Shown piece after piece: positions 13,336-36,540 of a stretch of DNA of 64,000 bases (the first letter of the stretch is position 1; each line of letters begins with the position of its first letter). This DNA comes from Octopus vulgaris (lineage: Eukaryota), in NCBI GenBank assembly GCA_951406725.2, contig OX597818.1, positions 76,384,001-76,448,000 on the forward strand, read 5' to 3'. The notes below the pieces were generated by a model. The model did no database searches, was not told the DNA's origin, and saw only the letters and a list, made by a program, of their open reading frames with translations. A program made the position numbers and the translations under genes.

Positions 13336-13458
13336 TTAGTTTGCAAGATTCTTTATGTGAATTCGTGTGCTGAAACAAATTTTCTTGTGTCTGGGGAAAG
13401 TCATAGTGCCTTGATATAACACACTCACCGGTTCAATTTCCACTCATTTATTTATTTA

Positions 13459-13505
13459 TTCCAGAAAGCTTTTTCGTCGCAGCATTTGTGACCGTATCAG
13501 TGGAT
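13459..13505 (-). ncRNA. Type I hammerhead-like motif, variant core
   Basis: UCCA CUGAUAC G GUCAC-AAAUGCU-GCGAC GAAA AAGCUU UC UGGA. Confidence 0.55.
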
Positions 13506-13749
13506 TTTGACTCGGTCCGTTATTGAAGCTGCGTTCCTTTTTGTTTTTGCAAAAGAAAAAACGAAAGCGTTATTTCTTTCGTGAGATTTTGATGCGAAAT
13601 TTTGTTGTGCGTGTGTGTGTATGTGCAGGCGCCATGTGTATGTATGTATGTATGTATGTATGTATGTATGTATGTATGTATGTATGTATGTATGTATGTA
13701 TGTATGTATGTACAAAAGGAACGCAGCTTCAACAATGGACAAAGTCAAA

Positions 13750-13796
13750 ATCCATTGATGCGGTTGCAAATGTAGCGACGAAAAAGCTTTCTGGAA
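13750..13796 (+). ncRNA. Type I hammerhead-like motif, variant core
   Basis: UCCA UUGAUGC G GUUGC-AAAUGUA-GCGAC GAAA AAGCUU UC UGGA; palindromic stem III AAAGCUUU. Confidence 0.6.
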
Positions 13797-13883
13797 TAAA
13801 TAAATAAATGAATGGAAATTGAACCCGTGATTGTGTTATATTGAGGCACTATGACTCTCCACAGACTCAGCAAAACATTATAA

Positions 13884-13943
<60 letters not shown>

Positions 13944-13948
<5 letters not shown>

Positions 13949-14357
13949 ATTTAGGAATGGTCATTTTGCCAGTTTAGCCAATAAAAACACACGCACTATA
14001 TATTTGGTGTTACTTTGCTTCAGTGTTATTTATTTTTTACATTAATCTTAATCTTATTTCGGCCAGAGTTCTTTCGTCACACTTCTGTGACCTCATCAGT
14101 GGTCCTTTGCTTTCTTCTTTCTTATTGGTGTGTCTCTCCTTACTAACGGTCAGCCATTTTGTATTTTGTATTCCTATTGTATGTATCTTCACTTGCGCAT
14201 GCGTATACCTCTATGTGTGTCTATGTTTAGTTAGTGTGTGCGTGTGTGTGTGGGGAGGGAGTGCCTGTAATATTTGTTGGCTAAACTGGCAAAATGACCA
14301 TTCCTAAATACAACAATATCTGTTTCAACACACGATTTCACATCAAAAATCTTGCAA

Positions 14358-14360
<3 letters not shown>
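13944..14360. mobile_element. Non-coding PLE-like element with inverted terminal duplication, flanked by (TA)n
   Basis: 13944-13983 is the reverse complement of about 14276-14315; contains an HHR. Confidence 0.75.
14061..14105 (-). ncRNA. Type I minimal hammerhead ribozyme
   Basis: GGACCA CUGAUGA G GUCAC-AGAAGU-GUGAC GAAA GAAC UC UGGCC; intact core, 5-bp stem II, CUC triplet. Confidence 0.75.
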
Positions 14361-14418
<58 letters not shown>

Positions 14419-14420
14419 AT

Positions 14421-14712
14421 AGGCGCAGGAGTGGCTGTGTGGTAAGTAGCTTGCTAACCAACCACATGGTTCCGGGTTCAGTCCCACTGCGTGGCACCTT
14501 GGGCAAGTGTCTTCTGCTATAGCCCCGGGCCGACCAATGCCTTGTGAGTGGATTTGGTAGACGGAAACTGAAAGAAGCCTGTCGTATATATGTATATGTA
14601 TGTATGTGTGTGTGTTTGTGTTTGTCCCCCTAGCATTGCTTGACAACCGATGCTGGTGTGCTTATGTCCCCGTTACTTGGCGGTTCGGCAAAAGAGACCG
14701 ATAGAATAAGTA
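14421..14712 (+). mobile_element. tRNA-derived CORE-like SINE with internal (TA/TG)n
   Basis: GGCGCAGGAGTGGCTGTGTGGTAAG..GGTTCAGTCCC..CACCTTGGGCAAGTGTCTT; other copies at 38930-39815, 54604-55040 and 58125-58500. Confidence 0.88.
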
Positions 14713-14724
14713 CTAAAGGCTATA

Positions 14725-15320
14725 TACCGATTCCTATATGCCACTCATATCTGAACTCGGCCTGCTTAGGAGGTTGTTATGTCCTAGCATATGTGCTGCT
14801 TCTTTTAGTTTTCGAATTTTCCAGTGGTGTTCTCTGTCTATTATTTTAACTTCATCCTACAGGGAGAGGTGGTCTCCATTTTTCCATACATGATCAGCTA
14901 TACTCGATTTGTCAATGTCTCCTCGTGTCACAGCTTTGCTATGTTCGTCTACCCTTATTTTGAAGGGACGGCATGTTTCGTCTTTGTATAACCTACCACA
15001 GCTGCATGGGATGGAGTACACGCAGTCTTTGGTGATATTCTCTACTATTGGTGGTTTTACTCGAAGAAGATATTTGCGAAGTGTTGTATTACTCTTGAAC
15101 ACTGTCCTGATGTTATACGGGCCGCATATCTTTTGTATCTTTTCGGAGAGGCCTTTCACATAGGATAGATAGACTGTGAACAGTTTATTGGTTTCATTCT
15201 CTCTCTTCTTCATAATTGAAGTGGATAGTATACTTTGGGGGTAGTTGTTGCTTAATAGATTATTATTGAGCTTGATCATTTCTTCGTGGTGTGTATCTGG
15301 ATCGCTACTTATATTCGAAA
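14725..15320 (-). mobile_element. Penelope-like element, RT thumb and GIY-YIG fragment
   Basis: LLSNNYPQSI..LSYVKGLSEKIQKI..CVYSIPCSCGRLYKDETCRPFKIRVDEH..SSIADHVW..RKLKEA. Confidence 0.9.
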
Positions 15321-15339
15321 AATACCTTAGAATCAGGAC

Positions 15340-15640
15340 CCAGGTTCGAAATTTCCCCAAGACATCTGATAAAGGCTGGAGGGTGTAGATCATGTCATAT
15401 TTTGGTGGAAGACATCGCACATGTGTTTAGCATGTCCCCCAAAGTATCATCAAAATATTACCTCCCTATGTGACACGACGTTGTCGCAAAAACAATATAC
15501 TGTGCCATTCAGAAAAAAAGACTGTCCTGGAATAAATATAGAGAATCTTTCCTGGTACTGAATACATGCACAAACATCAACTCAAAGAATACTGAAGGAA
15601 CATTCTTACCAAAACATCTGTCAAGCATAAATGTGACAAG
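15340..15640 (+). mobile_element. RLE-type LINE (R4/R2-like) zinc-knuckle fragment
   Basis: CRSCHILVEDIAHVFSMSPKVSSKYYLPM*HDVVAKTIY (CCHC plus RHD). Confidence 0.7.
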
Positions 15641-15879
15641 AGTTTTCAGAAAAAGAAGTCAACAAACCAACTCTCACGTTACAAATACAATCTGTAACTG
15701 GAACAGTAAAAATATGAAAGACTTTTTACAAGTTTAAGATGTGACATTGTTTTTCGTAATCTACTTTCCGACGATGGAGTTTTGTATCTTTGTTAGAAAC
15801 CAGCTCCTTCCTCAGAGAAAGAATTTAAATAATTACGAACAGAAGAGACCATACATGCATACATACATACATACATACA

Positions 15880-15910
<31 letters not shown>

Positions 15911-16150
15911 GTGTGTGTATTATATACATGCCTATATATATGTAAATGCATGTGTATGTATATATATATATACATACATATACGTACTTACATATACACA
16001 CACACATATGTGTGTATGTATGTATGTATGTATGTATACGTACATATATAATTACACGCACGCATATATAGAGAGAGACAGGCAAGTACATTGACAGATA
16101 GACAGAACGACGGACAGACAGATAGCTAGCTAGCTAGCTAGCTAGCTAGC

Positions 16151-16202
<52 letters not shown>

Positions 16203-16311
16203 AGAGTTGCGTAGTTCACTAACAAGTGATATGGTACAAACTCGTGTTGTATTAAGTCTCAAGGTCAAAGTATGATGGCGTGATATTAGTGACAAGTGAA
16301 AGAGAAAGAGC

Positions 16312-16346
<35 letters not shown>

Positions 16347-16534
16347 AAAAGAGAGAGGCGAGAGAGAGAAAGAAAGACAGTAGGATACAGAGAGGTAGAT
16401 GGAGAGTGTGGAGGGGAAGTGAGATAACACTCATAGATGAATAAGCCTGGCTCTGCCGTCAGATTCAGGATGAAGGACAGAACATAAGTTCATATAGATT
16501 GTAGTGTTTTATCAAATATGTGTGATTGTGAGTG

Positions 16535-16603
<69 letters not shown>

Positions 16604-17429
16604 CTATGCATGTATCTATGTATTTATGAATGTATCTATGCATTATGTATGTACGTACGTATGCATGTATGTATGCCGAGACATTAACCTGTAGTGGATA
16701 CTATTTCATTAAAGCGGTGCTCCAGCATGGCTACAGTCAAATGACTGAAGCAAGTGAAAGAATACAAATATATACATACAGATACAGACACACATACATA
16801 CTAGTACGACTACTACTACGACAACTACAATGATGGCGCAACGTATGTTTAAGTGTGTTTGCCTGAAACTTCAAAGACATTCTGTCATTTGAGCCTCAAC
16901 ATAACACATTATTCGGTTTATGATGTTCTTTCAGTTTTCCTTCTTTTTTCCTTATTTTACTTTATTTTGCATTGTATATGTGTGTATGTATGTATGTATG
17001 TATGTATGTATGTATGTATGTATGTATGTATGTATGTATGTATGTATGTATGTATGCATACATGCATGCACGTATATATGTACGTATGTATGCATGCATG
17101 TATGTATGTAAGCATGCCTTATGCATATATGTATGTATGTATGCATGTATGTATGCATGGATGTATGCATGCACTTATGTATTTATATATGTATGTATAT
17201 TATACATTATTATATAATACATATTATATTATGTATGTACATATATTATATATATTATATAGGATGGCCAAACAGCGGCTCGCGAGCCTCATACGGAAAT
17301 TGCTGGGTCTTGTGCCAAAATTTGAAACCGTTATATGTGACTTGGGGAAACACGTTGGCTGAGATCTTTTTTTTTTAAATCTCAATTAGCATAAACCTTA
17401 ACTAAAGACCCCTCCCGAGTCATATAAAT

Positions 17430-17655
17430 TCATAGGGACGGTTTTCCGGTTTCTGTGGTGTATATATTCTCTGCTTGGACGGGACACCGGTCCGTCTAAA
17501 GATTAGTCATTTTTTCCCAGCAGAGTGGACTAGAACAACGTGAAATGATGTGTTTTACTCAAGAACACAACGCATCGCTCCGTCCAGGAATCAAAACCAC
17601 AATCTTACGGTTATGAGTCCAACACCCTAACAACTAAGCCACGTACCTCCACTAA
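17430..17655 (-). mobile_element. tRNA-derived SINE
   Basis: tRNA-like head on the minus strand, related to 11812-12140. Confidence 0.7.
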
Positions 17656-17949
17656 CATAAGCCTTAAAGAAGAAAAATTCAAACTTTATGATTATTTATT
17701 GGGTCCGGTAGTTTAGAGCTGCGGGAACGGTTTGCTTTTGCAGGAACGAGGAACATTTTGCAACTATTTGAAAAATGCCCAAATATGAATTGTAATGATT
17801 TTTTAAAAATTTCTTCTATATTAGGTTTCATTCTCTCTAACTTTCTCACCACTATTCTCATTCAAGCTGTAACCAGGTGGATACATATAAGTCTATAAGG
17901 ATATGTCATTTGCATGTGGAATTCTGTTTTCATCGCTCTATTTCAAATC

Positions 17950-19548
17950 ATGCTGCTGTGTCAGTAAATACTGTTGACAACGTTCAGCAAGAAAGCCGAT
18001 GCAAAGACAGAAGCCAGTTTTGTTATTTTCTGGAATACTGCTCGAGCTAAACGTCCATTATTTGGTGGCGAATTTATTAACAATATAGCTGATGTTGTTG
18101 CAGTGTTAGATCCGAATAACACAAGACTTCAGTGACAAATAGTACAAACACTAATTTCAGCCGCTCTAAAGAGAGGCATATCTCTCAGATCAGTGCTGAT
18201 GTTGCATGCAAAATTCCCTTTTGACGAACCAACTGCGATACAAGGCGAATCTATTGACATACAAGACAACCCACAGCTAGCAGTTTTTGTTTATTTTGAA
18301 GTAACTATGAAAGAAGAGATGTTGAATTTGATGGAATTAAAAGAAACAACTTGTGCTGCTGACAGAGTATTAACAAATACTGGTGTTTCGCTATATAGAC
18401 TTGTTAGTGTTGCAACAGATGGAGCGCTTGCAATGGTGGTGGTGGCGCTGAAGGTGGAGGAATGAAGGATTAGTTGCACTTATGAACAGTAATCCCAGCT
18501 TTCCAGAATTTCTCTCAGTTCATTGTATTATTCATTGCGAACACCTAGTTGCCAGATACATTCATGGTTGATGCGGTCAATGATGGTTGACAGTTTCTCA
18601 ACCTTTATTAATGGCATCATCTGCTGGGGAAATGGGACAAACAGAATTGCAGGAGGACCTAGATCTAAAGATAATCCATAAATCCCAGTCTATAATTGAG
18701 TTCTAGAAACGAGTTCCAGAAATAAAATATACTGGACTGAAGAAAACTAGCGTGCTACACATCCCGATTTTTTGCACAACATACTGCTATGAATCAATGT
18801 ACTCTATAATGAAGCTTGTGTAACTGAAGAATAGTGTAAACCTCACAAGCCATCACCTGACAGAACTAATTCGTACAACCTTGACAAATAGCCAGATTTT
18901 CAACGACTAACAGCCGAGATGGAAACACATAAGACCTCTTTCTAGTAGTAAATAACGGCTTTAATAACCTGGTAGGGTCTTATTTAAATAGCTCTAATTT
19001 TATTGGTTTGCCTTTTTGCACGTTTTCTTCCATATTTTGACCAAATATTTAATAAGATAAATAAATAGCATTAAAAGAGTATACATTTTCCTTTACACTT
19101 TTAGTTTTGGCTGTCTAATTTTATTTATTGAAATGAAAATTCGTTAATTTTTCTGAAATGTTATTGTAGTTCATAACCGTATTAAATGTACTAAAACTTT
19201 TGGTGTATAAATTGAAATTTATGCAATTTAACAGTTTTCAATATTGCATTAATGTATAAATATTGTTGCATACATGCAAAATGTATATGGATCAAAACAT
19301 ATTCTTTTATTGTACTGGTTTCATTCATTAGACTACGAACATACTGGGTCATCGCCTTGAAGGCATTTTGTCAATTATATCAACCCAAGTACTTACTTTT
19401 TAAGCCTGGTATTATTTTATTGATCTAAGTTGCAGCACATAAATACAAACGTTAACAGACTGTAAATTTTGTTCACGTAGTGCGGCTCCCAAGCATCTGA
19501 ATTTTATTGAATGTGACTCTTACGTTAAGTAAGTTTAGTCAGCTCTAG
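17950..19548 (+). mobile_element. Decayed hAT transposon (Charlie/SPIN/GTF2IRD2-like)
   Basis: ESIDIQDNPQLAVFV..EEMLNLMELKETT..VSVATDGALAM..HCIIH; Charlie-like right end near 19530-19548; left end unclear. Confidence 0.75.
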
Positions 19549-19639
19549 TATAGACGGTAGGAGAGATATTTGGAGACATATTTGATTACTGAATAAAACA
19601 ACTCTAATCTAGTAAAGCAAAATGTATTTGATATAAATT

Positions 19640-21130
19640 TGTGCACGTTCTCGATAAGCTTTCTTATAAGATTATTCTATGAACCCGCCTTCAGCTTTGA
19701 TGACTACTTTAATGTGGACCGGAATCATTGAAATCCTGCACTAAATAGTCCCTATTCATTTCGGACGTCACCGGGATACTGACGGCTTCAATTAAGCTAA
19801 AATATTATGAGGATGTCGATTAGTCTCCTTTTCAATAACGGGCCAAACATTGTAGTCCATTGAATTTTAAATCTGGCAAGTTTGGAGGTCACAAGTTTGG
19901 TATTACGTGATCGTAAAGATTATCTGACATCCGTTCCTGGGCTAGAGGGCTAAGTGAGATGGTACTCAGACTTATTGGAATATGTGTGGTCATCCACCGT
20001 GTACTTCATCCATCCAGGGCTTAACAACTGTCTATAGTACCCTAAAGCATTAATTTAAAAACCCACCTTTTAGAAAGATGTGATGTGACATGATCTTTGT
20101 TACTAAAACCATCACAGATTATGGAAACTTCGTGTGCATTACTCTGGATATATCAGAAGGATCTATTCATAATAATCTGTCATTTCTCCTGTTAGACTTT
20201 TGGTCTTGGTCGGAGTTCTTCTCGTTAAAGAACTAAAGCATACTGTAACATTGGATTTAATCCCACGTTTTGCCACATATCTCAAACCACAATTCAATTA
20301 TAATTTGATCCAGTAGCAACCGAGATTTTACCTAATGAACGGCTATTGTTCACGTGATAGTTCAGTGGTCCAACTAGAAATTTCTGTAAGCAGGGCCTAT
20401 AGATACGGTCAATTTAAGCGCCGAAATTCAGAGTACCTAGGGTTGGATTTGAATTACACTATCCATATAGCTAGTCTCACGGCTGTGTATTCAATCAAGA
20501 ATGATCCAAGAAGACATGTCACGACACCTGAATATCCACTTGATATATAAAACCCAGCCCAAGTTTTGAATTTCAAACAGACATTTTTCTTTCGAGTCAT
20601 ATTACGCTGTTTCATCCTACTGTTTGAGTTGCATGAAAACCTTTTCTATTAATGTAACAAATAAATTATGTTGCAATATAAAAAAAACATATTTGTGAAG
20701 GCTTTTGCCGTGGTTAGATAACCGCTTAGCCCGGATCAAACAGTTTTCCTGATTTTTCCCAAATAAATTGGTCTCTCATCAGTACACACGACTCGTACGA
20801 TTGTTCTCGTGCACCACAGTTCTGGTACTCCACTCCAGTACTTGAAATTCTTTGGCGATAGCCCTCATTGATTTTCCGGGTCCATCATCGATAATATTTT
20901 GAATCAGAAAATTGTAATGCCCTTATAGTGTCTGAACGTTTAGAATTTTATATTTCTCTTTGATACAGTTGAAACATTCCCACTAGAGACTTCCAGTTCC
21001 ATCGTAACTTTATCTACAGAAGGATGCAACATTTACAAAGTTAGCCATTTCTAAATCGCTGTGACAACAATGACGTCATGTCTTTCAGTTTCTTATGTGA
21101 GCATTTTATCTGATACGAGGGATCTGAAAG
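19640..21130 (-). mobile_element. Decayed maT/DD37D-like Tc1/mariner with an internal insertion (about 20130-20700)
   Basis: IDDGPGKSMRAIAKEFQV..TVVHEN at the N-terminus and VVKPWMDEV..PPNLPDL..MDYNVWPVIEKETNRHPHN at the C-terminus. Confidence 0.7.
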
Positions 21131-21343
21131 AAGTAAAAACCTTTTATCCTTAAATACCGCTTACATCCTGCACACACACGCGTGCACGCATGCACAGAGG
21201 CACACACACTAACATGTGTATGTATGTAAATATATATGTATGTATGTATACAAACTTACATACACATATATATGCATACATACATGCACACACACATGTA
21301 TGTGTGTGTGCGTGTGTATACGAGTATGTGTGAGTATATATAA

Positions 21344-21408
<65 letters not shown>

Positions 21409-21443
21409 TATATAAGTATATAAATGTGTGTGTATATATATAT

Positions 21444-21479
<36 letters not shown>

Positions 21480-21881: not shown

Positions 21882-22115
21882 ATGAATTTTTTATATTTGA
21901 CTCTATTGAATGTATGTCACAATTATGAACTACTACATCATACTCTTTAAACATATAGCATGGACTCCCTTTATTATATATGAATTTTTTATATTTGACT
22001 CTATTGAATATTATATATGAATTTTTTATATTTGACTCTATTGAATATATGTCACAATTATGAACTATTACATCATACTCTTTAAACATATAGCATGAAC
22101 TCCCTTTATTATATA
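21882..22115. repeat. AT-rich tandem duplication, about 98-bp unit (2 full copies, 1 partial)
   Basis: ATGAATTTTTTATATTTGACTCTATTGAAT recurs at about 21882, 21980 and 22017. Confidence 0.9.
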
Positions 22116-22244
22116 TAATTTTTTTTGATAAGGTTCGTTATTTCAAGAACCGAAACATGTTAAAAATTAAAATTTGTCTAATATAGCAGCATTTTCAAAC
22201 TTCATTTTTTACAAATATATATCCACTCGTATACGAGCTAATCT

Positions 22245-22304
<60 letters not shown>

Positions 22305-22309
<5 letters not shown>

Positions 22310-22950
22310 TAAATGAGGGCAAAGGAAAAAATTTCTAATGCCAAATATGCCGAAAAATTGGACATATTGTCCATTAACCATATAATTTTTTCACAATACT
22401 CACGCTACTTGAAAAAAGGTCGACAGACATTTCTAAAAAATTCCATTATTACCATATCGGACCAATTTCAGAGTTAGCTACTAAGAGCCCCCTCTTCGTC
22501 AGCGATACATGTGGCAAAAGAAATAAATGAGATACTTACTCATACCCATGGAAGAAGCAAACACTAAGTCATGAGCACAACTAAGTACCCCAAATACATC
22601 CAAAATAGAAATACTCCAGCCCATTCGAGACACGTGCGATTTGAACTGAGGCTCTCACAGAGTGAGATAGTCCGGAAGTGAACGCTTAAATTTATATCTA
22701 ATGAGGATAAAATTTCTTTTGAAAAAAATATTCTTACGAAAAAAATGTTATCAATGGCCAGCATATTAAAAAATACCTTAAACGGTTAAATTTATAAACA
22801 ATTCATAAATGAGGGCAAAGGAAAAAATTTCAAATGCCAAATATGCCGAAAAATTGGACATATTGTCCATTAACCATATAATTTTTTCATAATACGCACG
22901 CTACTCGAAAAAAGGTCGATGGTTATAATGGAATTTTTTAGAAATGTCTG
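22305..22950 (-). mobile_element. Non-coding HHR-containing retrozyme/PLE-like element, 496-bp monomer in partial tandem
   Basis: Direct repeat 22305-22423 = 22801-22919; HHR between the copies; abuts (TA)n; terminal 31-bp inversion. Confidence 0.8.
22453..22509 (-). ncRNA. Type I minimal hammerhead ribozyme
   Basis: UGUAUCG CUGACGA AGAG..CUCU GAAA UUGG UC CGAUAUG; 7-bp stem I; GUC cleavage after 22460. Confidence 0.8.
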
Positions 22951-23049
22951 TGACACAAAGTATGACAAGCGTGACACAAAGTATGACAAGGCTGGCCCTT
23001 TTAAATACAGGTACAACAAAAATAGGAAGAAAGAGTGAGAGGAATGTGT

Positions 23050-23212: not shown

Positions 23213-23223
23213 ATACACACACA

Positions 23224-23259
<36 letters not shown>

Positions 23260-23312
23260 TATATATATATAGAGAGAGAGAAAGATATATATATATTTAT
23301 TTATTTATACAT

Positions 23313-23365
<53 letters not shown>

Positions 23366-23443: not shown

Positions 23444-24662
23444 CACGACGGAAGTAAATTGACTCCTCGTAAAACATTGTTTTATGTTTATTTTAACTTG
23501 AAAGGGTTTATATTTTTTGTTAACGGACATTTTTGTTTTTCAGGTTCTATATGTGACTGTTTAATCATACCACGTACAAAAGAAGCCTTGGAACTGTCCA
23601 AATTTCAAAGAGGCCATATTGTGGATCAATCTGAAGGTAGACTTAAGGTAAAATCGCAAAAAACCTGGGGATCCCACTTTCTACAGTTAATAGGGTGATT
23701 GTGCAATTCACCAGAGAGGGGAAGGAGCCCACATCCCCTTGCCCAGGTTAACCAGGGCCCTCTGACAAGAGGGCCCTGTTAAATGTTAAAAGAAGTATGG
23801 AGGATAATCCTCATTGCAAGGACTCTGACATAGCAGAACAAGTTGATGTCAGTCCCAGAACAGCTGTCAAGTATCTCCACAAACATGGTTACTATGACAG
23901 AGCAACAGGAAGGAAGCCCCTCCTTCAACCAGCCAATATCAAGTGGAGAAAAGATTGGGCCAGTGCGATGATGGAGTGGCCGCTAGAATTTTGGGACACT
24001 ATAATATTCTCTGATGAGTCCAGATTTGTTGTATTATCTGACTGGTCAAGTGTGGATCTGGAGACTGTGTAATCAAGAATTTAATGTGTAATAATTACTG
24101 TCAATAATGAAGCAAGGCTACTATTCTGTGATGGTCTGGGGAACAATTTGAAGTAAAGGTCAATCAGGGCTGGTTGGAGTGTGATGGAAACATAAACTCA
24201 GATAAATGTGTCCATATTGCAGAAGAAACTCCTTCCAATCTTCTCCAATGGTGAACTGATTAAAGAAGACTATGGAAGATGGGACTCCTTCTCACACGGC
24301 TAAAAAGACCCAAGATCGGTTGAAAAAGAATGGCATTAAAAAACTTCCATGGCCAGGCCAATCACCAGATATGTTCCCTATTGAATAGCTCTGGGGCATA
24401 ATGGATGAAACACTTCGTAAAACGAACAAGAAAGCGTCCTCAAAGCCAGATCTTTTGAGATTACTACATGAAACTTGGCAAGAAATTCCCCAAGAGAATA
24501 TTTGTTATCTCATCAGTAGCATGCCTTATAGGATCCTTGCATTGAAAAATGCAAAAGGCATGTCTACTAAATATTAGATATTCATATCAAAATAATTAAT
24601 AAATAATTTCAGATTAAAATAAATTTTAATGATTATAAGGGTGCCTATTTACTTCTGTTATG
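23444..24662 (+). mobile_element. Decayed full-span Tc1 transposon
   Basis: LELSKFQRGHIV, RKPLL, IIFSDESRF, VMVWG, WPGQSPDMFPIE motifs; diverged TIRs of about 35 bp sharing GAAGTAAAT. Confidence 0.9.
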
Positions 24663-24752: not shown

Positions 24753-25906
24753 CTAGCAAATGCACCCATACTTTAGACGGGGTAATTATTAATTATTATA
24801 ATGGTGCATTCCTGTGGACGGTTTAAGGTGAATTAGATAATTTGGGCTTCAGTGACGTGCTCTATCATTTGTTTGACCTCAAGGCGAGTTCCATTGCTTA
24901 GTGTATTTAGATTGTGTAGGAGGATGACAGGACAACTGATCAGTTGTCAACTGATCTGTAACAACGTTCTTGAGAATGTAGCTGACTAAGTCACATTAAG
25001 AGTGTTGACAGCTGCATTTGTAGGTGCAAGAACAGCCCTGTCGCGAAGCCAATTTGGTTTTATGCATTCCGTTGTAAGATTTGGATAAACGGTAGAACAC
25101 AAGTCAACAGGGCTGGATTCAGTGTGGCCAATGATGGTAGTATCCATGTATCCGTTGTCATCGGACGTAATTTGTCCATTGCCAATTTTAAAGAGCATTT
25201 CCGAAAACTGGGTTGTAGGCTGACCAGTTTGTAGGAGTGATCATATGTTGATGGTGAGTTGTTTAGATTAGACATGCGACCTAAGGAGGGATTTTTAAAG
25301 TTAAGTATTAAGTTTATCAGCAGGTGTTCCTTTGGGTATAATAGGCAGAGTTTGTCGAAAATCTGCAAGAAGAAGAGTCACACCTTGTTTGATCTAAGAT
25401 CTCTCATTGTGGTATGAAGTGCTTGTAGGGAACATTTATAGGACATAGTTGCTTCATCCCAAACAATGAATTTGCATTTTTTCAAAATTGTCGCTTTGTC
25501 CGAGAAATGCATTATGTGGCACGTTGGGTTTTCTTGATGTACTACATTGAAAGGCAATTTAAAAGTAGCGTGTGCTGTTCGTCCGCCATCTTGAAGAGTC
25601 GAGGCTATTCCTGGGGAGGTAACAGCAATAGCAAGATCACCATTATGCCGCATCTTCGCAATAAGATTCAGGAGGAACGTTTTTTTCTAGTTCCACAGGG
25701 TGCATCTAAGATGATTCCGCCAGTGTGTGTGTAGATGTTTTCGAGAACGTAATTGTATACGTCAGCTTGATCCGAATTGAGAAATTGTCTACAATGAACT
25801 GTTTGAATTTGTGGATGTTTCCCTGAGAATGAGACCATACACACACACATACACACACTCACGTACACACGCACACAGACACATCTTCTGTACTATATAT
25901 TATAGA
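24753..25906 (-). mobile_element. Internally deleted Helitron with Pif1-helicase fragments and both termini
   Basis: A|TC 5' end at 25906; hairpin plus CTAG|T 3' end at 24753; LDAPCGT, GIASTLQDGGRTAHATFKLP, IVWDEATM, RAVLAPTNAAV. Confidence 0.92.
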
Positions 25907-26049: not shown

Positions 26050-26790
26050 CTAACTTCATCATGGTTTTTGTAATTAATTTATTTATCCCTTTCTATAGTT
26101 TTCCACCCTCCTGTTCATATTATTATTTTTATAAGTGGCCCTTCTAATTAAGTACCCCTAAGAAACTATATTATCATGTATGTATTAACTCTGGAAACTT
26201 TTAAAACTTATATTACACATCTCAGTTTATAATTGATATATAGTTGGCATGTTCTATAGCCTCAATATTCCTCATGTAAATACCGGGTATCAGTCTTTAT
26301 AGATACCACCAAATAACTAATAACTAATAAAGAAATAATTTAGTTTAAACGATTGAGTTATTAAACAAATTCTATAAAATCTTCTCTTTCTATTGATGAT
26401 AATAAGGTATATATACTTCATCATGGCTTTTAGTGATTAAACTATTTATTCCTTTTTATGGTGATCTACCCTACTGATCGTATTATTATTTTTATATTAG
26501 CCCTTAAGTAAGCCTAATGTTTGTACCCCTAGAAATTTATATTAGCTTATATATAACAGCACCGGAAACTCCACAACTTATAATACACCTCTTAGATTAT
26601 AATTATTATAAAATATAGTTAGCATGTTCTATCGCCCCAGTATTCCTTTCTTAAATTATCAGTAAATGCAAGTGATCAATCTTCATAGATACCACCTAAC
26701 AAGTAAATATTTAAGTATATGAATAAATATTAAACTAATTCTATGTAATTTTTTCTCTCTCTATTGTTGTAAATGTTGGTATATACTCAA
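26050..26790. repeat. Diverged tandem duplication, about 360-bp AT-rich unit
   Basis: ACTTCATCATGG, GTACCCCTA, GCATGTTCTAT and ATAGATACCACC occur in the same order in 26050-26410 and 26415-26790. Confidence 0.8.
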
Positions 26791-27338: not shown

Positions 27339-27424
27339 TGCAGCTGAGGATAGCTCTGCATTTAAATTGATGTAATGATTGCATTGTTCAATTAAATGGA
27401 ATCCCTTGAAACGGTCATACTGTA
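27339..27424 (+). ncRNA. Decayed type I hammerhead with long stem II
   Basis: UGCAG CUGAGGA [hairpin CAUUUAAAUUGA/UCAAUUAAAUG] GAAA CGGUCA UA CUGUA; base of stem II unpaired. Confidence 0.55.
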
Positions 27425-27594
27425 GCACTTCTGGATATCCTGTTGCTTATTTTGATGTATATATATATATACAATTACACATACATACATACATACATAC
27501 ATACATACATACATACATACATACATACATACATACATACATACATACATGCATACATACATACATACATGCATACATACATATATACATATCC

Positions 27595-28015: not shown

Positions 28016-30272
28016 CAGGGATGCTACTGTTGGGTTTGTACACTCAGATCTGGGGTTTTTTTGAGCAATGACGGGTTTATGGGTTTTAATTTCCAAATTT
28101 ACATTAAATCTGGGTTTTTAAGTTAGCTTTGGCTGCAAACTTATCTTTTAAAGAGAATTCGGTGTTATACACTTTGTATGCAATATGTACCAAAGTTGCA
28201 CCTCTTCTAATACTTGGTAAATTTTCTATATATCATCTATAATCATCTCATGTAATGAATTTATCGATACAAATGTTGTATGTGGCGTAATTACCGATCG
28301 TACGCGTTCATTACTTGTTTATATTTGTATCATACCAGGCAACTACAAGTTACAACGCGTTGGTAACCCCTAGTACACTTGTCTGAAATTCTGACACCGC
28401 CAGTTGACAACTTGACTGTGTTGATGGTGTGCACTTCGATTGTTACTCGCAATTTAAAATTTGTTTAACATTTTGGGTGAGTGTTTTTTTGTTTTGTAAC
28501 CCTTTGCGAAATAATGGCAGACAATAGTGGGTCCAAAATGAGGAAGTGGAAATTCTCAAGAAACGAAAGTTTTCAGTATTGATAGATGAGAATACAGACA
28601 TCTCAGTGACACAAATTTTAACGATAGTTGTTCCCCCTTTTTTTTGTCAAGGATGCTCTTCTGGATGCAATTATAGTAGAAAATGGTTCGTCTCAGGTCT
28701 TGTACGATGCTGTCAAGTCTACGCTTACAAAAGAAGATGTATCTACGAGCAACATACTTGGATTTGCCAGCAATAGTTACTCAACATTGATGGGTAACAA
28801 GAGCGGGTTTCAAAAGTTATTGAGAAACGATATTCCGACTGTATTTACAATAGGCTGTGTTTTCAATTCGTTTGCACTGTGTTCAAGTCATACAGTGAAG
28901 GCTTGACCTTCGTATCTCGAGTCCTTTTTAAAGGACTTCTTACTTTTCTCGAAGTGGCAAACGTCAAAATGACTTCAATATGATACAAAGTGTTGTTGGC
29001 ACAAAAGAAAGCAATATTCCAAAACTTTCACAAACTAGATGCTTGTCGTGTGAAAATGTAATTAACGTTATAATAGAACAGTGGGATGCCCTTGTACTTT
29101 ATTTTTAGTCTGAGGATAAAGTAGAAAAAGTAGACGGAGCAAAAAGGATCTATGAAACAATGATTAACATAGGGGTGAAGCACATGCTGCTCTTCTTACA
29201 TTATATATTAAAGAAAGTAAATGCTCTCAATGTCGAGTTTCAATCAGAACACTTTTGACTGCATCTGTTCCATACACTTGTATCCAATGAATATAAAAGC
29301 ATCCTTAGTTGCTTTATAAAAGAGGATGTTTTAACTGTATCTAATTTATCAGATATTGATATTAATAACACAACAAATCACAAAGATATGAGTGATATTT
29401 ACCTCGGTGGACGCGCAATGAGATATCTAGAACAAAACCCCATCATTGGTGACTCAGCTAGATTCAAAACTGATTGCAAAAATTTTTAAATAGAATTATG
29501 CTCTCAAATAAAAATGCACTTTCCTCTCGATGAAGCTGGAGTGCTTGCCCTCTTAGAAATACTTGATCCAAAAGCAGTGCGCAATCTCACTAACGCTCCC
29601 CAGTCAATAATTCCCTTGGCATCAAACTTTCCGGCAATTGCACCAGGAAACACTTGATAAACAAGCCGATGAATGGAGATTATTTCAGTAATATGAAGAT
29701 ATTTCTGTTTCCTCAAAAAGCATCCCCGAATTCTGGTATTCCATACGCAATCTTAAAGACGGGCTTGACCACTCTAAATTTGAGAGGCTGTCATAATTCA
29801 TGACTAATTTAACGGTGTTACCTCGTTCATCAGCGCGCATGGAACGCATATTTTCCCAAGTAAATTGCACAAGCACAAAGTTCACTAATAGGATGAAGGC
29901 CGAAACGATCACCGATCGTCTTCTCGCTAAACAAACAATTACAAAAAAGGGAACGTGATACATTTCTTGGGAGCCGAACGCTAAACTTATTAAAGATGTA
30001 GTGGATGTGTCTTATCACCGTAGATATATAAGTAGGCTGAACTTCAAAAAGGAAGGAGTGAATGAAGATGATATGGGTATGTATGAAATTGACAATTAAC
30101 TGCCATATGATATAAAGTAAGTATTAAATTCTGTATTCATTTTGTCATATATCATATTTTATCATTAAATTACCAATTATATATTTTCTAACATCTGGGT
30201 TTATAAAATAGGATTTGGGTTTTTTGTAGCAAATAATCTGAGCGTTTTATTATTTGATGAGTGGCAACCCTA
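28016..30272 (+). mobile_element. Decayed hAT transposon (Blackjack/ZNF862-like)
   Basis: FSVLIDENTDISV, MGNKSG, IGCVFNSFALC, VLPRSSARMERIFSQVN; ends CAGGGATGCTAC and GTGGCAACCCTA; no TSD resolved. Confidence 0.88.
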
Positions 30273-30650
30273 CAGGGATTGTCTAACACAACTCTTACAT
30301 CACGTCGATGACATCCTTAAAGCCTTGGGATCAGGTTCGAACTCTGATGTCATATACCTGGACTTCAGTAAAGCGTTCGACAGAGTCGACCACAATATCC
30401 TACTGTCAAAATTGTCAAATATTGGAATCTGTGGAAAACTACTAAATGGATTGAGTATTTCCTGGAGAACAGAAACATGTCGTGATCGGTGTAATCCACT
30501 CAGTCCAGCAAAGGTCACCAGTGGTGTTCCTCAGGAGACTGACTTGGGCTCGCTTCTGTTTATAGGCTATACAAATGATATTTCAAGAGTCATCAATCAC
30601 AGCAAAGGGAAAATAATGACTCCAAGCTCCAGAAAATCATCCACGGAGAA
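30273..30650 (+). mobile_element. CR1/L2-group LINE RT, 3' piece
   Basis: RDCLTQLL..DVIYLDFSKAFDRVDH..SGVPQETDLGSLLF continues the piece before 28016. Confidence 0.88.
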
Positions 30651-30901
30651 GACCGCATGTATGTATACAATTATAAGAGCGTTGACAGCAAGAATAGAGT
30701 CCTTTGCCTCTAATTTCTAGCAGTGTAGGTGTTCCAACACACTCGGTCATATTTCCTTTTTGGTGAAACTCTGCTAACTAGCTGCCTCATTTAATTATTT
30801 GAATGCACATTGGCGATTCGCTAAATCATCCATAAACATTTTTATGGAATAAACATATATGTTTGTAGCTCGGCTGTCCGGAAAGAAGCGAACTGTACTG
30901 G

Positions 30902-30949
30902 CCCTTTTGAAGATGCTTCGGCCTAAAGCTGAAACCCCACGGTAAAGGG
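30902..30949 (+). ncRNA. Type I hammerhead (C3U)
   Basis: CCCUU UUGAAGA UGCUU..AAGCU GAAA CC-CCAC-GG UA AAGGG; GUA cleavage after 30944. Confidence 0.7.
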
Positions 30950-31146
30950 ATATTACAGTCGTCAATCTCCGGCCATCTACAGTTGCTGCCGGCATATATG
31001 TATATAATTATATGCGCGTTGACAGCAGCAATAGAGCCCTTTAGCTCTTATTTCTAGCAGTATAGGTGTTCTAGAACCCTCAGTCATGTTTAATGGCATT
31101 TATTGTTTTCCTTTTTGGTGAAACCCTGCTAACTAGCCGCATCACT

Positions 31147-31976
31147 GGATCTTTTCGGTTTGAACGACAGTTTTTAACATAATTTCTAGGTAACTAAAAA
31201 ATTTTTAACTTCGTATACTGGTAGAATGTGTTTATAAAGCATCATTTTCTCTTGGCTTTCTTGGGAAGATTCTACAGGTTGTAACATATTTCGTCTTTAA
31301 TTCCTTGCATTCGGCAATTTTAACCAATTAATGACCGTCTATTGAGGTGAAAGCATTCTGTGCCGTATGAATATGTCCCTCCTTTAAGAAATAGATTAGG
31401 TTTATTTACATTTGTGAAGAAAAAAAGATACCCTTCCCCCACCCCTAACCCTAACCCTAACTAACCCTAACTTACCCTAAATCTAAAATAGATTGAAATG
31501 CAATAGATCGATACTAAGGCCATAATTATGGGTGATAATTTCATATGACACCGCTAGAAAAACCTGCCATTTTCTCTAGCTGTGTCATATGAAATTGTCA
31601 CCCATAATTATGACCCTCGAATCGATCTATTGCATTTCAATCTATTTTAGATTTAGGGTTAGTTAGGGTTAGGGTTAGGGGTGGGGGAAGAGTATCTTTT
31701 TTTCTTCACAAATGTAAATAAATCCAATCTATTTCTTAAAGGAGGGACATATTCATACGGCACAGAATGCTTTCACCTCAATAGACGGTCATTGATTGGT
31801 TAAAATTGCCGAAATGCAAGAAATTAAAGACGAAATATGTTACAAACTATAGAATTTTCTCAATAAAGCCAAGAGAAAATGATGTTTTATAAACACTTTC
31901 TACCAGTATACGAAGTTTAAAATTTTTAGTTACCAAGAAATTATGTTAAAAACTGCTGTTCAAACCGAAAAGATCC
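31147..31976. mobile_element. 830-bp palindromic MITE/foldback element with (CCTAAC)n tracts
   Basis: Arms 31147-31560 and about 31572-31976; ends GGATCTTTTCGGTTTGAAC; flanks GCATCACT and GCATCATCT look like an 8-9-bp TSD. Confidence 0.88.
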
Positions 31977-32075
31977 GCATCATCTAATTATATACATACA
32001 CGCACGCACACATGTAGGCATATACATACACTCACACTCACACACACGCGTACACCTGTCCAAGGAGTTCCATGC

Positions 32076-32149
<74 letters not shown>

Positions 32150-32150
<1 letters not shown>

Positions 32151-32683
32151 CCCCGATGCAGTACCATGGTTTCTAATGTTAGCTAACTAGATGTATTAAC
32201 ATGTACATTGTTTCATCTTGGTATAAAAGATGGACTACAGCAAATATTCTTCTCAATACCACAAATTTTCTTGTCATTTGCTTGATCTTAACCAGTTGAG
32301 CATGTCCCTTATTGGCTGACGATATGTGCGTCTCTGATCATGAGCAGTAGTGGGGAAGCATCATAGCCATGTGTTGAGATGAATTCTTTGGGTTTGGATA
32401 ATTCACCTTTGGAAACATTGGTTTTTGTTCATCATCCTTAATCAACCCTTATTCAGGGACCTTTTGAGCGGGATGGGCTACTCGACTTGAAGAAAATTCT
32501 AACTGAGCCTCACCTGCAAGGTCATGCACTGTTTATCTTGATATGAGGTCACTATGTCTTGCACATACGGTTGTGATCCATGTGCCTGGTGTACTCTTAT
32601 CAGACAGGTAGTCGTCATGGGTATACTAGGCTTCGTCTATTTTACCCCAATGTCACTTTGATGGTACGCACTGCTCTCTCAGT
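32150..32683. mobile_element. About 535-bp element embedded in (TAA)n
   Basis: Long (TAA)n on both sides; weak R4-like HGY..WLRSSK translation on the minus strand. Confidence 0.5.
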
Positions 32684-32717
32684 TAATAATAATAACAACA
32701 ACAACAACAACAACAAC

Positions 32718-32768
<51 letters not shown>

Positions 32769-32804
32769 TCAAATTTTGGCACAAGACCAGAACTTTAGTA
32801 ATAA

Positions 32805-32873
<69 letters not shown>

Positions 32874-32900
32874 CGACGACGACGACGACGACGATGATAA
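32684..32900. repeat. (TAA)/(CAA) and (GAT)/(GAC) microsatellites
   Basis: Direct inspection. Confidence 0.95.
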
Positions 32901-33533
32901 TCGTGGTGATGATGGAAATGGCGGTGAGGGTGGTAGTGATCATGACGACACGACGACAGCGGTGGTGGTGGTCGCCGTCGCAGCGGTGGAAACGATGGTG
33001 GTGGTGATTTTTGTGATAAATAGTGGAGGATAGATGTAAATAATGATGAGTAACAAAACGAGATAGGATATAAGTCAAACAAATTAATTGTTATAAAATA
33101 AGATATTTTTTGCTGGTTAAAAGTTAATTACAATAGGCTTATATCAGAAACCTACACCCACTCCTTCCATTGTGATATTAATTATTACTAACACAGCTGA
33201 TAATTAAAGATTATAATTAGAAACGTATGAGGTACTACGCTAAAACAACTGTGTATCGGTAAATTCATCTAAATTAAGATTCTGGGCGATACAAAAGCTT
33301 TTGCTGGAAAATATTAACACTGAAAGACTTCTTTGTACATATAGATGATGATACTTCCTGTGTGTTAGTTCTTAGCATAGCTGTATAGTGTTATCAGTGC
33401 GAAAATCGATCGGTTGGAAAGGACAGACTTATCATGAGCATTGAGATTTAAAAGTTGTCATTGCATCAGTCACTGAAACTAGGGACTGTAATTGCGTAAA
33501 AGTGAACTGTAGGTCAATGTATTTTTAAGGTCT

Positions 33534-33616
<83 letters not shown>

Positions 33617-34459
33617 TGAGAGAGAGGAGGGAAACAGCTACCAACATTCTAAGCTAAGATTTCAAACCTAATTTACAATTTGATATAAGTTCCTAGTTCC
33701 TAGGCCTATTGTTTTCGCTTGTTGCCCTAAGTGATTAATCAGAATAAGCTGACTCCTTAGACCTTTGAGAGTTATTCACGTGCCAAACCTGATATAGTAG
33801 AAGAATCCTTTGTTTTTGCTTAACCTAGTATAGTAAGAAGAACATAAAACCACGACAGCAAATTAACTCCTTCTCTTTGGTAACTCGGCACCTATCAAAA
33901 GTACACGTCCATCTTTCTTCTTTCTTCCTTCTGTCCAGTACTGAAGGAGAAACAGCATGGGACAATACACTGCTTATACTTTCTACTTACCTTAATGTTT
34001 TTTTTACTCTCTCACTCTTGATGAAACTAATTATCTACAGAATGGGCTAGAGATCTACAAATAACTTGTATACACAATAACTCGACGAAGTGGTAGTTTC
34101 TATAATGTACCACAATAACAATATAAATAAACAGCCATCTCAAAAATGAATTAATATTGTTTTTATCATTCATTTATCCGATGCATCATGACATTAAACT
34201 TTGTCATATATATACACAAATAGCAGCAGATGGATTGTGATTCACTACTGCTGCTTCAGGTGGGGTTTTTTTTATGAATAGAATTATTACATCACGCTGT
34301 GAAAAAACCGTTTTCATCAGGTGAATATATGTAAGAATTAAACATTTCAAAGCATCTCAATGCATAAGCAAAATGCCATTTCGTGAGACTCACCAACTAA
34401 AATTCGTCCTGACCGAATTTTAGCCGGTGAGTTATGAAATGGCATTTTGCTACGGAATT

Positions 34460-34512
<53 letters not shown>

Positions 34513-35174
34513 TAGCAAAATGATAAATAAAACATATGCATATATACATCTATATGTACTTACATATATATGTATATATACATGCATATATAGGTACAGG
34601 ACACCAAAAAAACGTCGAACACAATGAGAAACGAAAACATAAAAACAGAACCGTGGAAACGGACATTTTTTTAAACAACGAAAAAACAGGATGCAAGACA
34701 TACGACACAAGGAAAATTCCCCTTCTTCAGCCACCTCCGTTTCGTCTACTCCGCGTTTCGAAGGTAAAGGCGAGACACGACTTCGATGAAACGGTCCTTC
34801 CCGCAAATAATTTGAGATTTTTTGCGGAGGAGTAAAAGTGGTAACAAAAACAGGACAGTAAAAACAATACAAGACAGTAACAGCTTATTGTTCGCTCAAC
34901 GTAGCATCAACAAAGACAAAAGTACTCCATACAGTGAGAAATAAGTATTTAATGTACACAGTACAAAAAATAGTTTCTTACTAGGATCGAGGTAAGTTTT
35001 TATAACACACCTTATGTCTCCAAATAATCTCTACACTCTGACCACGTGGTCTATTTAGCCTGCAATCAGGACACTAATACAAGAGAAATCACGAGAAAAA
35101 CGAAAAGGTATATATGTGTGTGTGTGTGTGTACATGCGTATATATATCTACATATACATATGCATATACATATA

Positions 35175-35870
35175 TATTTAAAAGACCACAATGAACAATT
35201 TCATTTAGAATGGTTGATTCTCTCAATTTCGATACCATATGACAAAGGCAAGAAATTCTGTCTTCTCTGCAATTCTGAGCTATTTTTCATTATTTTTTCT
35301 AAAAAATACTCTAGTAAACACGGTTATAGAGCGAGCATACAGATGTAAGCATTGGCAAAAACATACATTTAGTGCATATAAGTAGTCTCTATCATTATAT
35401 ATAATTTAAACTTTAATTTCCTTTATATTTAACATCCACTATTAATATCCCTACTGTTTCTGTTAGCTACTTATGACGTTATATCATATAACGTTTTTTT
35501 AAACAATATCAATAGCGTTCTGTCTATCGCTATACAAATCCATCATTTTTTGCTAAAATGTCTTATTGACGAGTTTCGTTTTTTTCACTTTCCTGAGGAG
35601 AAGATTGCATTGTTTATACCATTTATTCTTTTGAATAGTATCAGTGGAATTTTCGAAACATGTGTCGAAAGTAAAAATATTTGATTATACCTACGTTAAC
35701 TCCATTTTTTTATTCATATTATTCAAAATATTCAACGTAAACACGAAGTTTCTACCTTTATAAACAAGGAGTTACAACACCTTTACTTGTGAGATTTTTG
35801 CTGCCCTGGTAACTATTTTTTTTTTTTCCGTGTTAATTGTTAACAAGGTAAAAATACACTCATCTATTTA
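35175..35870 (+). mobile_element. Penelope-like element 3' end (endonuclease C-terminus and pLTR)
   Basis: LKDHNEQFHLEWLILSISIPYDKGKKFCLLCNSELFFI, a W..L..PY..C.LC..E motif; downstream HHR; ends at (TA)n. Confidence 0.8.
35582..35677 (+). ncRNA. Type I hammerhead ribozyme, well formed
   Basis: UUUUCACUUUC CUGAGGA GAAGAUUGCAUUG..CAGUGGAAUUUUC GAAA CAUGUG UC GAAAGUAAAAA; GUC cleavage after 35666. Confidence 0.85.
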
Positions 35871-35916
<46 letters not shown>

Positions 35917-35920
<4 letters not shown>

Positions 35921-36540
35921 GAATTTACAAAAAAACAAAAGACGAAGACGGGTGTGTAAACAACAAACAGATGTATTAGTTTAACGCTCGGGAAGTGAGA
36001 AACTATTTTACGTTTCGAGCCTACGCTCTTCGACAGAAAGGAACACAGAAATAAACAGGGATAGAAAATAAAAAAGGTTTAGTGGCTAGCGATCTATCAT
36101 GGCGAATGCCGGACAAAGGGGTCACACAGGAGAGCTAGGAAGAAGGGGAGATAATAAAGTAGTGGTAATCCCAAAACGAAGGTGCGCGTGTGTATGTGAG
36201 AGTGTGTATATGCGTGTGGAAGGGGGCTAGTGACCTTGATATGCATGTGTAGGTGTGTGAATGATGGCGAGGATGCTGGGAAGTAGTCAGTGCTAGTGTG
36301 TGCGCTGGTGTGGGTGCTGGGAAGTGGTCAGTGCTAGTGTGTGCGGGGTAGTGTGATGTGGTGTGGTGCGGTATGGTGGTGTGGTGGTGTGGTGTGTGGT
36401 GGTGTGTGGTGGGTGGTGTGGTGGTGTTGAGGTGTGGGGGAAGCAAGGGTTGGGGTGTAAAGGATTATAAAGATGATGGGGTTGGAATGTGTAGGAGTGG
36501 GGTAATGAGGGAGGGGTGACGATATATATATATGCGTGTG
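35917..36540 (-). mobile_element. PLE pLTR-like element with a CA-rich body
   Basis: Abuts (TA)n, carries an HHR motif, and has a degenerate GT-rich tract at 36180-36540. Confidence 0.6.
36005..36040 (-). ncRNA. Minimal hammerhead-like motif (A6U, extra A)
   Basis: UUU CUGUCGA A GAGC-GUAG-GCUC GAAA CG UA AAA. Confidence 0.6.

What the first reader, a model, noticed from the sequence alone, without database searches (positions are those of the whole stretch)
13338..36040. Eight hammerhead motifs from several families in non-coding PLE/retrozyme-like units within 23 kb
Seen: type I HHR folds at 13459(-), 13750(+), 14061(-), 22453(-), 27339(+), 30902(+), 35582(+) and 36005(-). Most have a short or palindromic stem III (AAAGCUUU, AUUGGU, ACAUGUGU, ACGU). 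They lie in units that end at (TA)n-type microsatellites and are arranged as partial tandems or inverted dimers. One is attached to a PLE endonuclease C-terminus, and PLE RT/GIY-YIG fragments occur at 14725 and 60986. Known: minimal dimerising HHRs mark PLE pLTRs and animal non-LTR retrozymes. Inference: this genome hosts a diverse set of ribozyme-processed, possibly circular, non-autonomous RNAs mobilised by PLE RT, including non-canonical cores that standard searches could miss.
Basis: partly seen in the sequence, partly recalled or inferred. Interest (0 to 1): 0.8.

Follow-up and report, generated by a model that had tools for sequence, protein, structure and literature searches.

The report
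Hammerhead ribozymes in Penelope retroelement remnants
This repeat-rich animal DNA holds about ten sequences shaped like small self-cutting "hammerhead" RNAs, likely the decayed ends of several Penelope-type jumping genes, where such motifs are already known; one family carries an unusual core whose activity is untested.

Summary
The eight hammerhead-like motifs are at the stated places. I found two more (22125+, 50790-) and a half motif (15366+). Four motifs score beyond chance; the rest are degenerate, and Rfam finds none. Six of eight lie within 300 nt upstream of (TA)n (background 10%). One follows a Hydra-type Penelope endonuclease C-terminus. Related copies in sequencing contigs show Penelope hallmarks: a shared optional 3' tail, inverted joints and (TA)n ends.

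Best reading: old 3' ends and short non-coding derivatives of about seven Penelope-like families. This is a known class. The circular-RNA claim is unsupported here: no locus has two same-strand ribozymes of one family, the "dimers" are inverted, and no go-back joint was listed for the one family tested.

The new detail is family A. Its majority core is UUGAUAC (known U3-A8 swap plus C at position 9) in about 15 contigs in each of two organisms, with a compensatory stem II pair against sister family B. Cleavage is untested, and copies show CpG decay. The scan has noted similar Penelope hammerhead variants on other DNA. Interest is modest.

The parts
13338..13612 (-). Family A copy 1 (non-coding, about 210-nt body plus two tail pieces at its 5' end); hammerhead-like motif 13460-13504, C3 13500, predicted cut after 13464; core CUGAUAC, stem III AAAGCUUU
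   Evidence: family state
13714..13886 (+). Family A copy 2, inverted relative to copy 1, ending at (TA)n 13887-13942; motif 13751-13795, core UUGAUGC
13944..14363 (-). Family B unit (13944-14259) with canonical core at 14099, plus an inverted copy of its 3' end carrying the tail shared with family A (14260-14363, + strand)
   Evidence: tail junction seen as a loose end in 54 contigs of X1
14725..15312 (-). 5'-truncated PLE ORF fragment: RT C-terminal region and GIY-YIG-type endonuclease, with an in-frame stop
   Evidence: (14 relatives, best 63% identity, most carrying PF26215 and some RVT_1)
15366..15390 (+). Half hammerhead-like motif (first core half and start of stem II only) in a piece inverted against the PLE fragment; candidate only
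   Evidence: sequence
22120..22166 (+). Additional motif U with U3-A8 core (UUGAUAA), 5-bp stems I and II, palindromic ACAUGU; unit ends at (TA)n 22248-22305
22307..22951 (-). Unit T: 496-nt non-coding monomer, a 117-nt extra 3' copy (96.6% identical) and a 33-nt inverted piece; canonical motif 22453-22509, predicted cut after 22460
27339..27424 (+). Degenerate motif L1: canonical core, 57-nt stem II region with unpaired base, imperfect palindrome; 114 nt upstream of (TA)n
   Evidence: did not pass the descriptor
30655..31146 (+). Unit F: 337-nt non-coding partial tandem (about 1.45 copies, 75% identity), second copy interrupted by an inverted-repeat element; full-size type I motif 30891-30961 with 3-bp stem III and extended stem I
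35178..35390 (+). Frameshifted C-terminus of a Hydra-type PLE endonuclease (CxxC, E, LN, CxH pattern), truncated at a microsatellite
   Evidence: searches compared by eye with PMC8557442 section 11 and supplement; Atlas lead only
35587..35672 (+). Motif H: canonical core, 6-bp stem I, 55-nt stem II hairpin, stem III ACAUGUGU; 3' UTR of the Hydra-type fragment, ending at (TA)n 35875-35916
35917..36180 (-). Unit S: minimal hammerhead 36006-36039 (extra A after position 9, 4-bp stem II, ACGU) with U at position 6
50696..50797 (-).
60989..61324 (-). Second PLE fragment (RT region only), degraded and interrupted
   Evidence: tblastn E down to 2e-14

Best explanation
The motifs are hammerhead-shaped sequences near the ends of short repeat units that mostly stop at (TA)n tracts, and they are likely the old 3' ends and short non-coding derivatives of about seven Penelope-like retroelement (PLE) families. 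Inferred mechanism: a PLE RT-endonuclease nicks (TA)n, starts reverse transcription near the element's 3' end (with or without an optional tail) and usually stops early or switches strand. Because the hammerhead lies 100-300 nt from that end, even short insertions keep it, which explains ten motifs in 64 kb with little coding sequence. Shown: motifs, (TA)n ends, tail sharing between A and B, inversions, a Hydra-type ORF end before H, and family A's UUGAUAC core. Inferred: PLE origin of the units with no ORF, non-autonomy of T, F and A, and past dimer- or protein-assisted cleavage. The copies here are probably inert, and family A probably spread with a weak or dead ribozyme.
For: Hydra-clade PLEs carry 3' hammerheads with 3-4-bp near-palindromic stem III and insert at (TA)n (PMC8557442). 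Partial tandems, inverted 5' copies and optional 30-40-bp tails are described PLE marks. B-type 3' end joined to the A tail in 54 contigs; tail followed by TA-rich letters in 171 and 183 contigs; 12 of 14 listed joints change strand. S matches the published minimal architecture except at position 6 (PMC4209133). U3-A8, U3.G8 and U.U at 10.1-11.1 are all in print. CpG-type changes hit G12 in 14% and 17% and C11.1 in 31% and 29% of depth. In 6 of the 12 inverted joints the upper end lies at 13512-13518, upstream of the motif, so those templates were uncut. This fits PMC11167929, where cleavage was dispensable for insertion in vitro.
Against: Only H has a recognisable ORF directly upstream; for A, B, U, T, L1, F, S and L2 no coding partner was found (six-frame reading; tblastn used only one PLE type). 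Family-level data exist for A only. The T and F junctions define non-coding monomers of retrozyme size. Family A depth falls about 80-fold across the predicted cut site and 77 and 74 contigs end at 13460, which could mean that cut RNA was the template. L1 and S could be chance or dead motifs.
Confidence: 0.7

Rival explanations
1. Several families (best candidates F, T, A) are non-LTR retrozymes: tandem non-coding units whose transcripts self-cleave to monomers, circularise and are re-inserted by a PLE RT.
For: F (337 nt) and T (496 nt) are non-coding partial tandems near the 150-450-bp range of PMC7229834. F has a full-size fold with 3-bp stem III and an extended stem I. The A1 5' end resembles a tail-to-head junction (sequence; A-rich, weak). 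A 2026 preprint proposes that animal retrozymes derive from PLE pLTRs.
Against: No locus has two consecutive units that each hold a hammerhead, the preprint's criterion. A1 and A2 are on opposite strands. No go-back joint among 14 listed joints in 4 runs for family A (contigs, weak). In the preprint 8 of 9 tested dimers did not cleave.
Confidence: 0.17
2. Only the four strong motifs (B, T, H, L2) are real hammerheads; the degenerate ones (L1, S, F, U, A) are chance look-alikes in AT-rich repeat DNA.
For: Shuffles gave up to 4 hits at score >=7 and up to 6 at score >=6. L1 and A1 failed the descriptor. No Rfam support.
Against: A aligns to canonical B at 75% over 52 nt (E 7e-5) and its majority stem II is fully paired. 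U, S and L1 lie 114-123 nt upstream of (TA)n, like the strong motifs. F has paired stems I, II and III and a second stem I segment.
Confidence: 0.1
3. The cluster is a functional host locus that processes a long transcript with several ribozymes.
For: Density only: nine full motifs between 13.4 and 36.1 kb against one elsewhere in the window.
Against: Mixed strands, unrelated families, each inside an interspersed repeat, many with broken cores; family A copies decay at CpG.
Confidence: 0.03

Closest known systems
Minimal, dimer-dependent type I hammerheads of metazoan Penelope-like elements (Cervera & De la Pena 2014, PMC4209133)
   Same: Type I order, short stem I, extra nucleotide after position 9 (A, B, S), palindromic stem III, mostly single dispersed motifs, opposite-strand pairs a few hundred bp apart, U3-A8 and U3.G8 variants.
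   Different: Family A has C at position 9; every row of the supplement alignment part that I read has A9. S has U6. H, L1 and L2 have 55-69-nt stem II regions.
Hydra-clade PLEs (Craig et al. 2021, PMC8557442)
   Same: Endonuclease C-terminus with CxxC and CxH around E and N, hammerhead about 100-200 nt from the 3' end, near-palindromic 3-4-bp stem III, (TA)n insertion.
   Different: Motif H has a much longer stem II than the listed Hydra motifs and differs in sequence from the listed octopus Hydra element; only about 70 frameshifted codons remain.
Animal non-LTR retrozymes (Cervera & de la Pena 2020, PMC7229834; Li, Clavereau & Pollet 2026, 10.64898/2026.07.22.740005)
   Same: Non-coding units of a few hundred nt with a type I hammerhead, low GC, proposed PLE origin; F is the closest in fold and size.
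   Different: Here units are 1.2-1.45 copies with one hammerhead; no multimers or circles seen.
Poseidon element of Anolis (PMC11167929)
   Same: Optional 3' tail, AT-rich target, hammerhead near the reverse-transcription start.
   Different: That element is intact and assayed; these are decayed fragments. No ORF starting inside the core was seen for A or B.

Membership tests
Type I / minimal PLE hammerhead | Core CUGANGA(H)...GAAA...UH, or the U3-A8 covariant | tested here: inconclusive
   Met by B, T, L1, H, L2 (canonical) and U (U3-A8); F has U3.G8, which is in print; not met by A1, A2 (C9) or S (U6).
Type I / minimal PLE hammerhead | A at position 9 in family A | tested here: not met
   no change from C9 to A9 at or above 10% of depth in X1 or X15; majority U3 (717/776 and 714/759 depth, 13 contigs each).
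Type I / minimal PLE hammerhead | Paired stems I and II | tested here: met
   Met in 9 of 10 full motifs; L1 stem II base unpaired. Majority family A stem II is five Watson-Crick pairs, one differing on both sides from B.
Type I / minimal PLE hammerhead | Short, self-complementary stem III | tested here: met
   Fully self-complementary (G-U allowed) in A1, A2, U, T, H, S; 6 of 8 in L1 and L2; 4 of 6 in B; F has an ordinary 3-bp hairpin.
Type I / minimal PLE hammerhead | Self-cleavage as dimer or with protein help | not testable with these tools
   Needs in vitro assay; only contigs, no raw RNA reads, were listed.
Rfam hammerhead families | Covariance-model match | tested here: not met
   No hammerhead row in 5 of 5 E-value scans (one low-scoring row was not shown).
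Penelope-like elements (EN+) | RT and GIY-YIG ORF upstream of the hammerhead-bearing end | tested here: inconclusive
   Met for H by motif pattern; possible for the half motif at 15366; not found for the other eight units.
Penelope-like elements (EN+) | Partial tandems, inverted 5' pieces, optional 3' tail, microsatellite targets | tested here: met
Hydra clade | EN with CxxC and CxH flanking conserved E and N; RT signature motifs | tested here: inconclusive
   EN tail pattern matches by eye; RT absent, no alignment or tree; Atlas hits 0.77-0.82 are leads only.
Non-LTR retrozymes | At least two consecutive tandem units each with a complete hammerhead | tested here: not met
   No such locus in the window; no go-back joint listed for family A. 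Other loci of T and F not examined.
Non-LTR retrozymes | Non-coding unit of about 150-450 bp | tested here: met
   F 337 nt; T 496 nt is slightly above; no protein match seen.
Non-LTR retrozymes | Abundant circular RNA | not testable with these tools
   Only assembled contigs of guessed RNA runs were available.

The most novel reading that the evidence does not exclude
Family A's UUGAUAC core (U3-A8 plus C9) is an active natural hammerhead variant, working as a dimer or with PLE protein, and ribozyme cleavage fixes the 5' ends of many inserted copies. The window would then sample several undescribed 200-500-nt non-coding mini-PLEs or retrozymes that multiply through cut or circular RNA, giving a genomic record of hammerhead function in PLE transposition.
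Probability: 0.12. Interest if true: 0.62.

Novelty: new variant of a known kind. Interest (0 to 1): 0.33.

Why it matters
The role of hammerheads in Penelope elements is open: cleavage is slow in vitro and was dispensable for insertion in the one purified system. A family that multiplied with C at conserved position 9 is a natural test of whether the ribozyme is needed. Copy ends near predicted cut sites, if confirmed genome-wide, would show that cut RNA is used as template. Otherwise this is ordinary but unannotated PLE debris that Rfam-based annotation overlooks.

Tried and rejected
No whole genome was held, so no genome-wide scan or consensus was possible. Pattern scans for family copies found 0 stretches in viral contigs, metagenome contigs (35) and prokaryote genomes (94). 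A PLE protein scan of metagenomes gave 2 loci (43-45% identity) with almost no 3' UTR and no credible hammerhead. Reading core codons from spurious ORF homologues of B and S failed: 0 hits. No RNA holder was listed as on record; this says nothing on expression. The two guessed RNA runs covered the family A motif with only 1-2 contigs and listed no place where many molecules begin or end; contigs cannot show ends or levels. Pfam gave no PLE family for the two PLE fragments or the Hydra-type piece (36 ORFs of 213). Core-like strings at 7049, 20782 and 38214 were rejected for lack of stems; 49071, 56075 and 61869 scored 6-6.6, within shuffle range. Octopus Naiad 3' ends seen in supplement passages do not resemble these units. 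Paper searches for window motifs found 0 papers. 'hammerhead' with 'A9C' found 0 papers; a wider position-9 search listed 25 of 41 papers, none on this by title or abstract start. Lunse et al. on PLE hammerhead variants is not held and may already list C9 cores. Supplement file 1 of PMC4209133 and the preprint's supplements could not be seen. The organism was not identified by any search; an octopus-like genome is my recalled impression only.
Full report
Context. The window is 37.7% GC, rich in microsatellites and transposon fragments. No genome was held and run labels are coded. It looks to me like an octopus genome, but that is recalled and untested.

Observation. All eight motifs exist. I name them by C3 position: A1 13500(-), A2 13755(+), B 14099(-), T 22502(-), L1 27344(+), F 30907(+), H 35593(+), S 36036(-). 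My descriptor scan returned 11 hits at score 6 or more, including six of the eight. It added U at 22125(+), with the U3-A8 core, and L2 at 50790(-). A half motif lies at 15366(+). Against 40 shuffles, four hits (H, L2, T, B) are clearly beyond chance: 4 against a mean of 0.1 at score 10. At score 7 the count is 8 against 1.15, so single weaker motifs are not secure alone. The descriptor was written after seeing the motifs. Rfam listed no hammerhead in 5 of 5 scans.

Anatomy. Three tracts are each flanked by two different families end to end: A2 and B, U and T, H and S. T is a 496-nt monomer with a 117-nt extra 3' copy and a 33-nt inverted piece. F is a 337-nt partial tandem broken by an inverted-repeat element. 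A1 and A2 are inverted copies, 87.7% identical; A and B align at 75% over the motif. No locus has two same-strand hammerheads of one family, so none could excise a unit-length RNA or form a cis dimer. A read-through of A1-A2 would instead form a long hairpin (inference).

Coding partners. 14725-15312(-) is a PLE RT-end and GIY-YIG fragment, with 14 relatives at up to 63% identity. 60989-61324(-) is an RT-region fragment. Upstream of H, two frames give a CxxC, E, LN, CxH pattern. This matches by eye the Hydra clade description and consensus ends in PMC8557442 (section 11; supplement parts 1, 2, 52, 53). No alignment was run, and the Atlas gave only a weak GIY-YIG lead. No ORF was recognised upstream of the other units.

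Family test. I laid contigs of four runs on A1 (13300-13612, 80% likeness); X1 and X15 are DNA of two organisms. Position 3 is U in 717 of 776 and 714 of 759 depth units (13 contigs each). No change at positions 8 or 9 is listed. Four weaker rows were not shown, but the tallies by kind show that C9-to-A is under 10% in both runs; one unlisted T>C per run and one unlisted G>A in X15 could be minor G8 or U9 copies. The majority core is therefore UUGAUAC plus an extra G, and each window copy is one change from it. A change at 13489 (59% and 86%) completes a five-pair stem II that differs from B on both sides of one pair. The two organisms probably share inherited loci, so they are not independent. 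CpG-type changes reach 14-34% in core and stem, including G12, so copies are old. Depth over the motif is about 700-2,200, against about 50 for a single contig, while the 3' tail reaches 2e5-7e5. Family A is thus a small branch of a large group sharing that tail. Loose ends show a B-type end joined to this tail in 54 contigs and TA-rich letters beyond the tail in 171 and 183 contigs. Twelve of 14 listed joints change strand, two skip, none goes back.

An open hint. Depth falls about 80-fold between 13453 and 13475, across the predicted cut after 13464, and 77 and 74 contigs end at 13460. T's inverted piece also begins 0-4 nt from its cut site. Cleaved templates could explain this. So could priming in the adjacent AT-rich tract, microhomology at the T junction, or sister families with another hammerhead. 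The loose-end agreement (0.53-0.59, against 0.42 for unrelated flanks) points partly to sister families. Six of the 12 inverted joints reach 13512-13518, beyond the motif, so uncut templates were also used.

Mechanism. Shown: motifs, ends, inversions, tail, family A core. Inferred from PLE biology: endonuclease nicking at (TA)n, internal start of reverse transcription giving the optional tail, and frequent truncation, which leaves hammerhead-bearing ends. In PMC11167929 (passages and section 3 part 2) the Anolis hammerhead needed protein, was dispensable for insertion, and no RNA-seq reads ended at its cut site. From my own knowledge, A9 pairs with G12 in the active fold, so C9 likely lowers activity; I found no paper to cite for this.

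Comparison. PMC4209133 (main text parts 1-2 of 4; supplement file 2 part 2 and passages) already describes minimal palindromic hammerheads, mostly single, opposite-strand pairs, U3-A8 and U3.G8 cores, and a tentative circle model. PMC3088659 (section 8) covers U3-A8, A6C with low activity and U.U at 10.1-11.1. PMC7229834 (passages) and the 2026 preprint (parts 1-3 of 5) define retrozymes as tandem units; the preprint requires two ribozyme-bearing units and found 1 of 9 dimers active. PMC13282606 (part 1 of 3 and passages) counts 31 recently active Penelope-like families in Octopus vulgaris and never mentions ribozymes. C9 cores were not found. Lunse et al., seen only as a reference and summary in PMC6765202 (passages), could not be read and may hold them.

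Verdict. A real and well-spotted set of motifs that belongs to a known class. The retrozyme and circular-RNA reading stays possible for F, T and A but has no support here. The family-level C9 core is a modest new variant whose activity is untested. Earlier AI notes on other genomes report similar cases; none overlaps this DNA and I did not treat them as support.

Noticed in passing
window 13887-13942, 22248-22305, 35875-35916: Three (TA)n tracts are each flanked by two different hammerhead-bearing families facing 3' end to 3' end, suggesting reuse of the same target tracts.
   Followed up: partly
window 27344, 35593, 50790: Three motifs have 55-69-nt stem II regions with strong distal hairpins, longer than the published Hydra motifs and beyond usual descriptors.
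   Followed up: partly
window 26053-26785: A degenerate 362-bp tandem (69% identity) begins at a TA-rich microsatellite about 560 nt upstream of motif L1; no coding potential seen.
   Followed up: partly
window 34590-34900 (-): A repeat-like unit ending in a TA-rich tract holds CUGAAGA followed by a hairpin but no downstream GAAA; possibly a half-core motif.
   Followed up: no
window 31147-31976: Inverted-repeat element with 274-bp arms (94%) and internal TAACCC-like repeats, inserted in the second copy of unit F.
   Followed up: no
window 12834-13337: Mariner (Mos1-type HTH) fragment whose end abuts the 3' end of family A copy 1; that end has high depth.
   Followed up: partly
window 21882-22104: Young 135-bp tandem duplication (96.6% over 88 nt) just upstream of motif U.
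   Followed up: no
window 14422-14718, 38932-39023, 54595-54978, 58126-58445 and 3027-3246, 11396-11746, 42379-42528, 44018-44244, 44931-45082: Two abundant SINE-like families; the first abuts the truncated 3' end of the PLE fragment at 14725.
   Followed up: no
window 923-1282, 2561-2815, 30169-30717, 48576-49070, 23752-24069, 25381-25686: Other transposon fragments: four RT pieces, a Tc3-type transposase and a PIF1 helicase.
   Followed up: no
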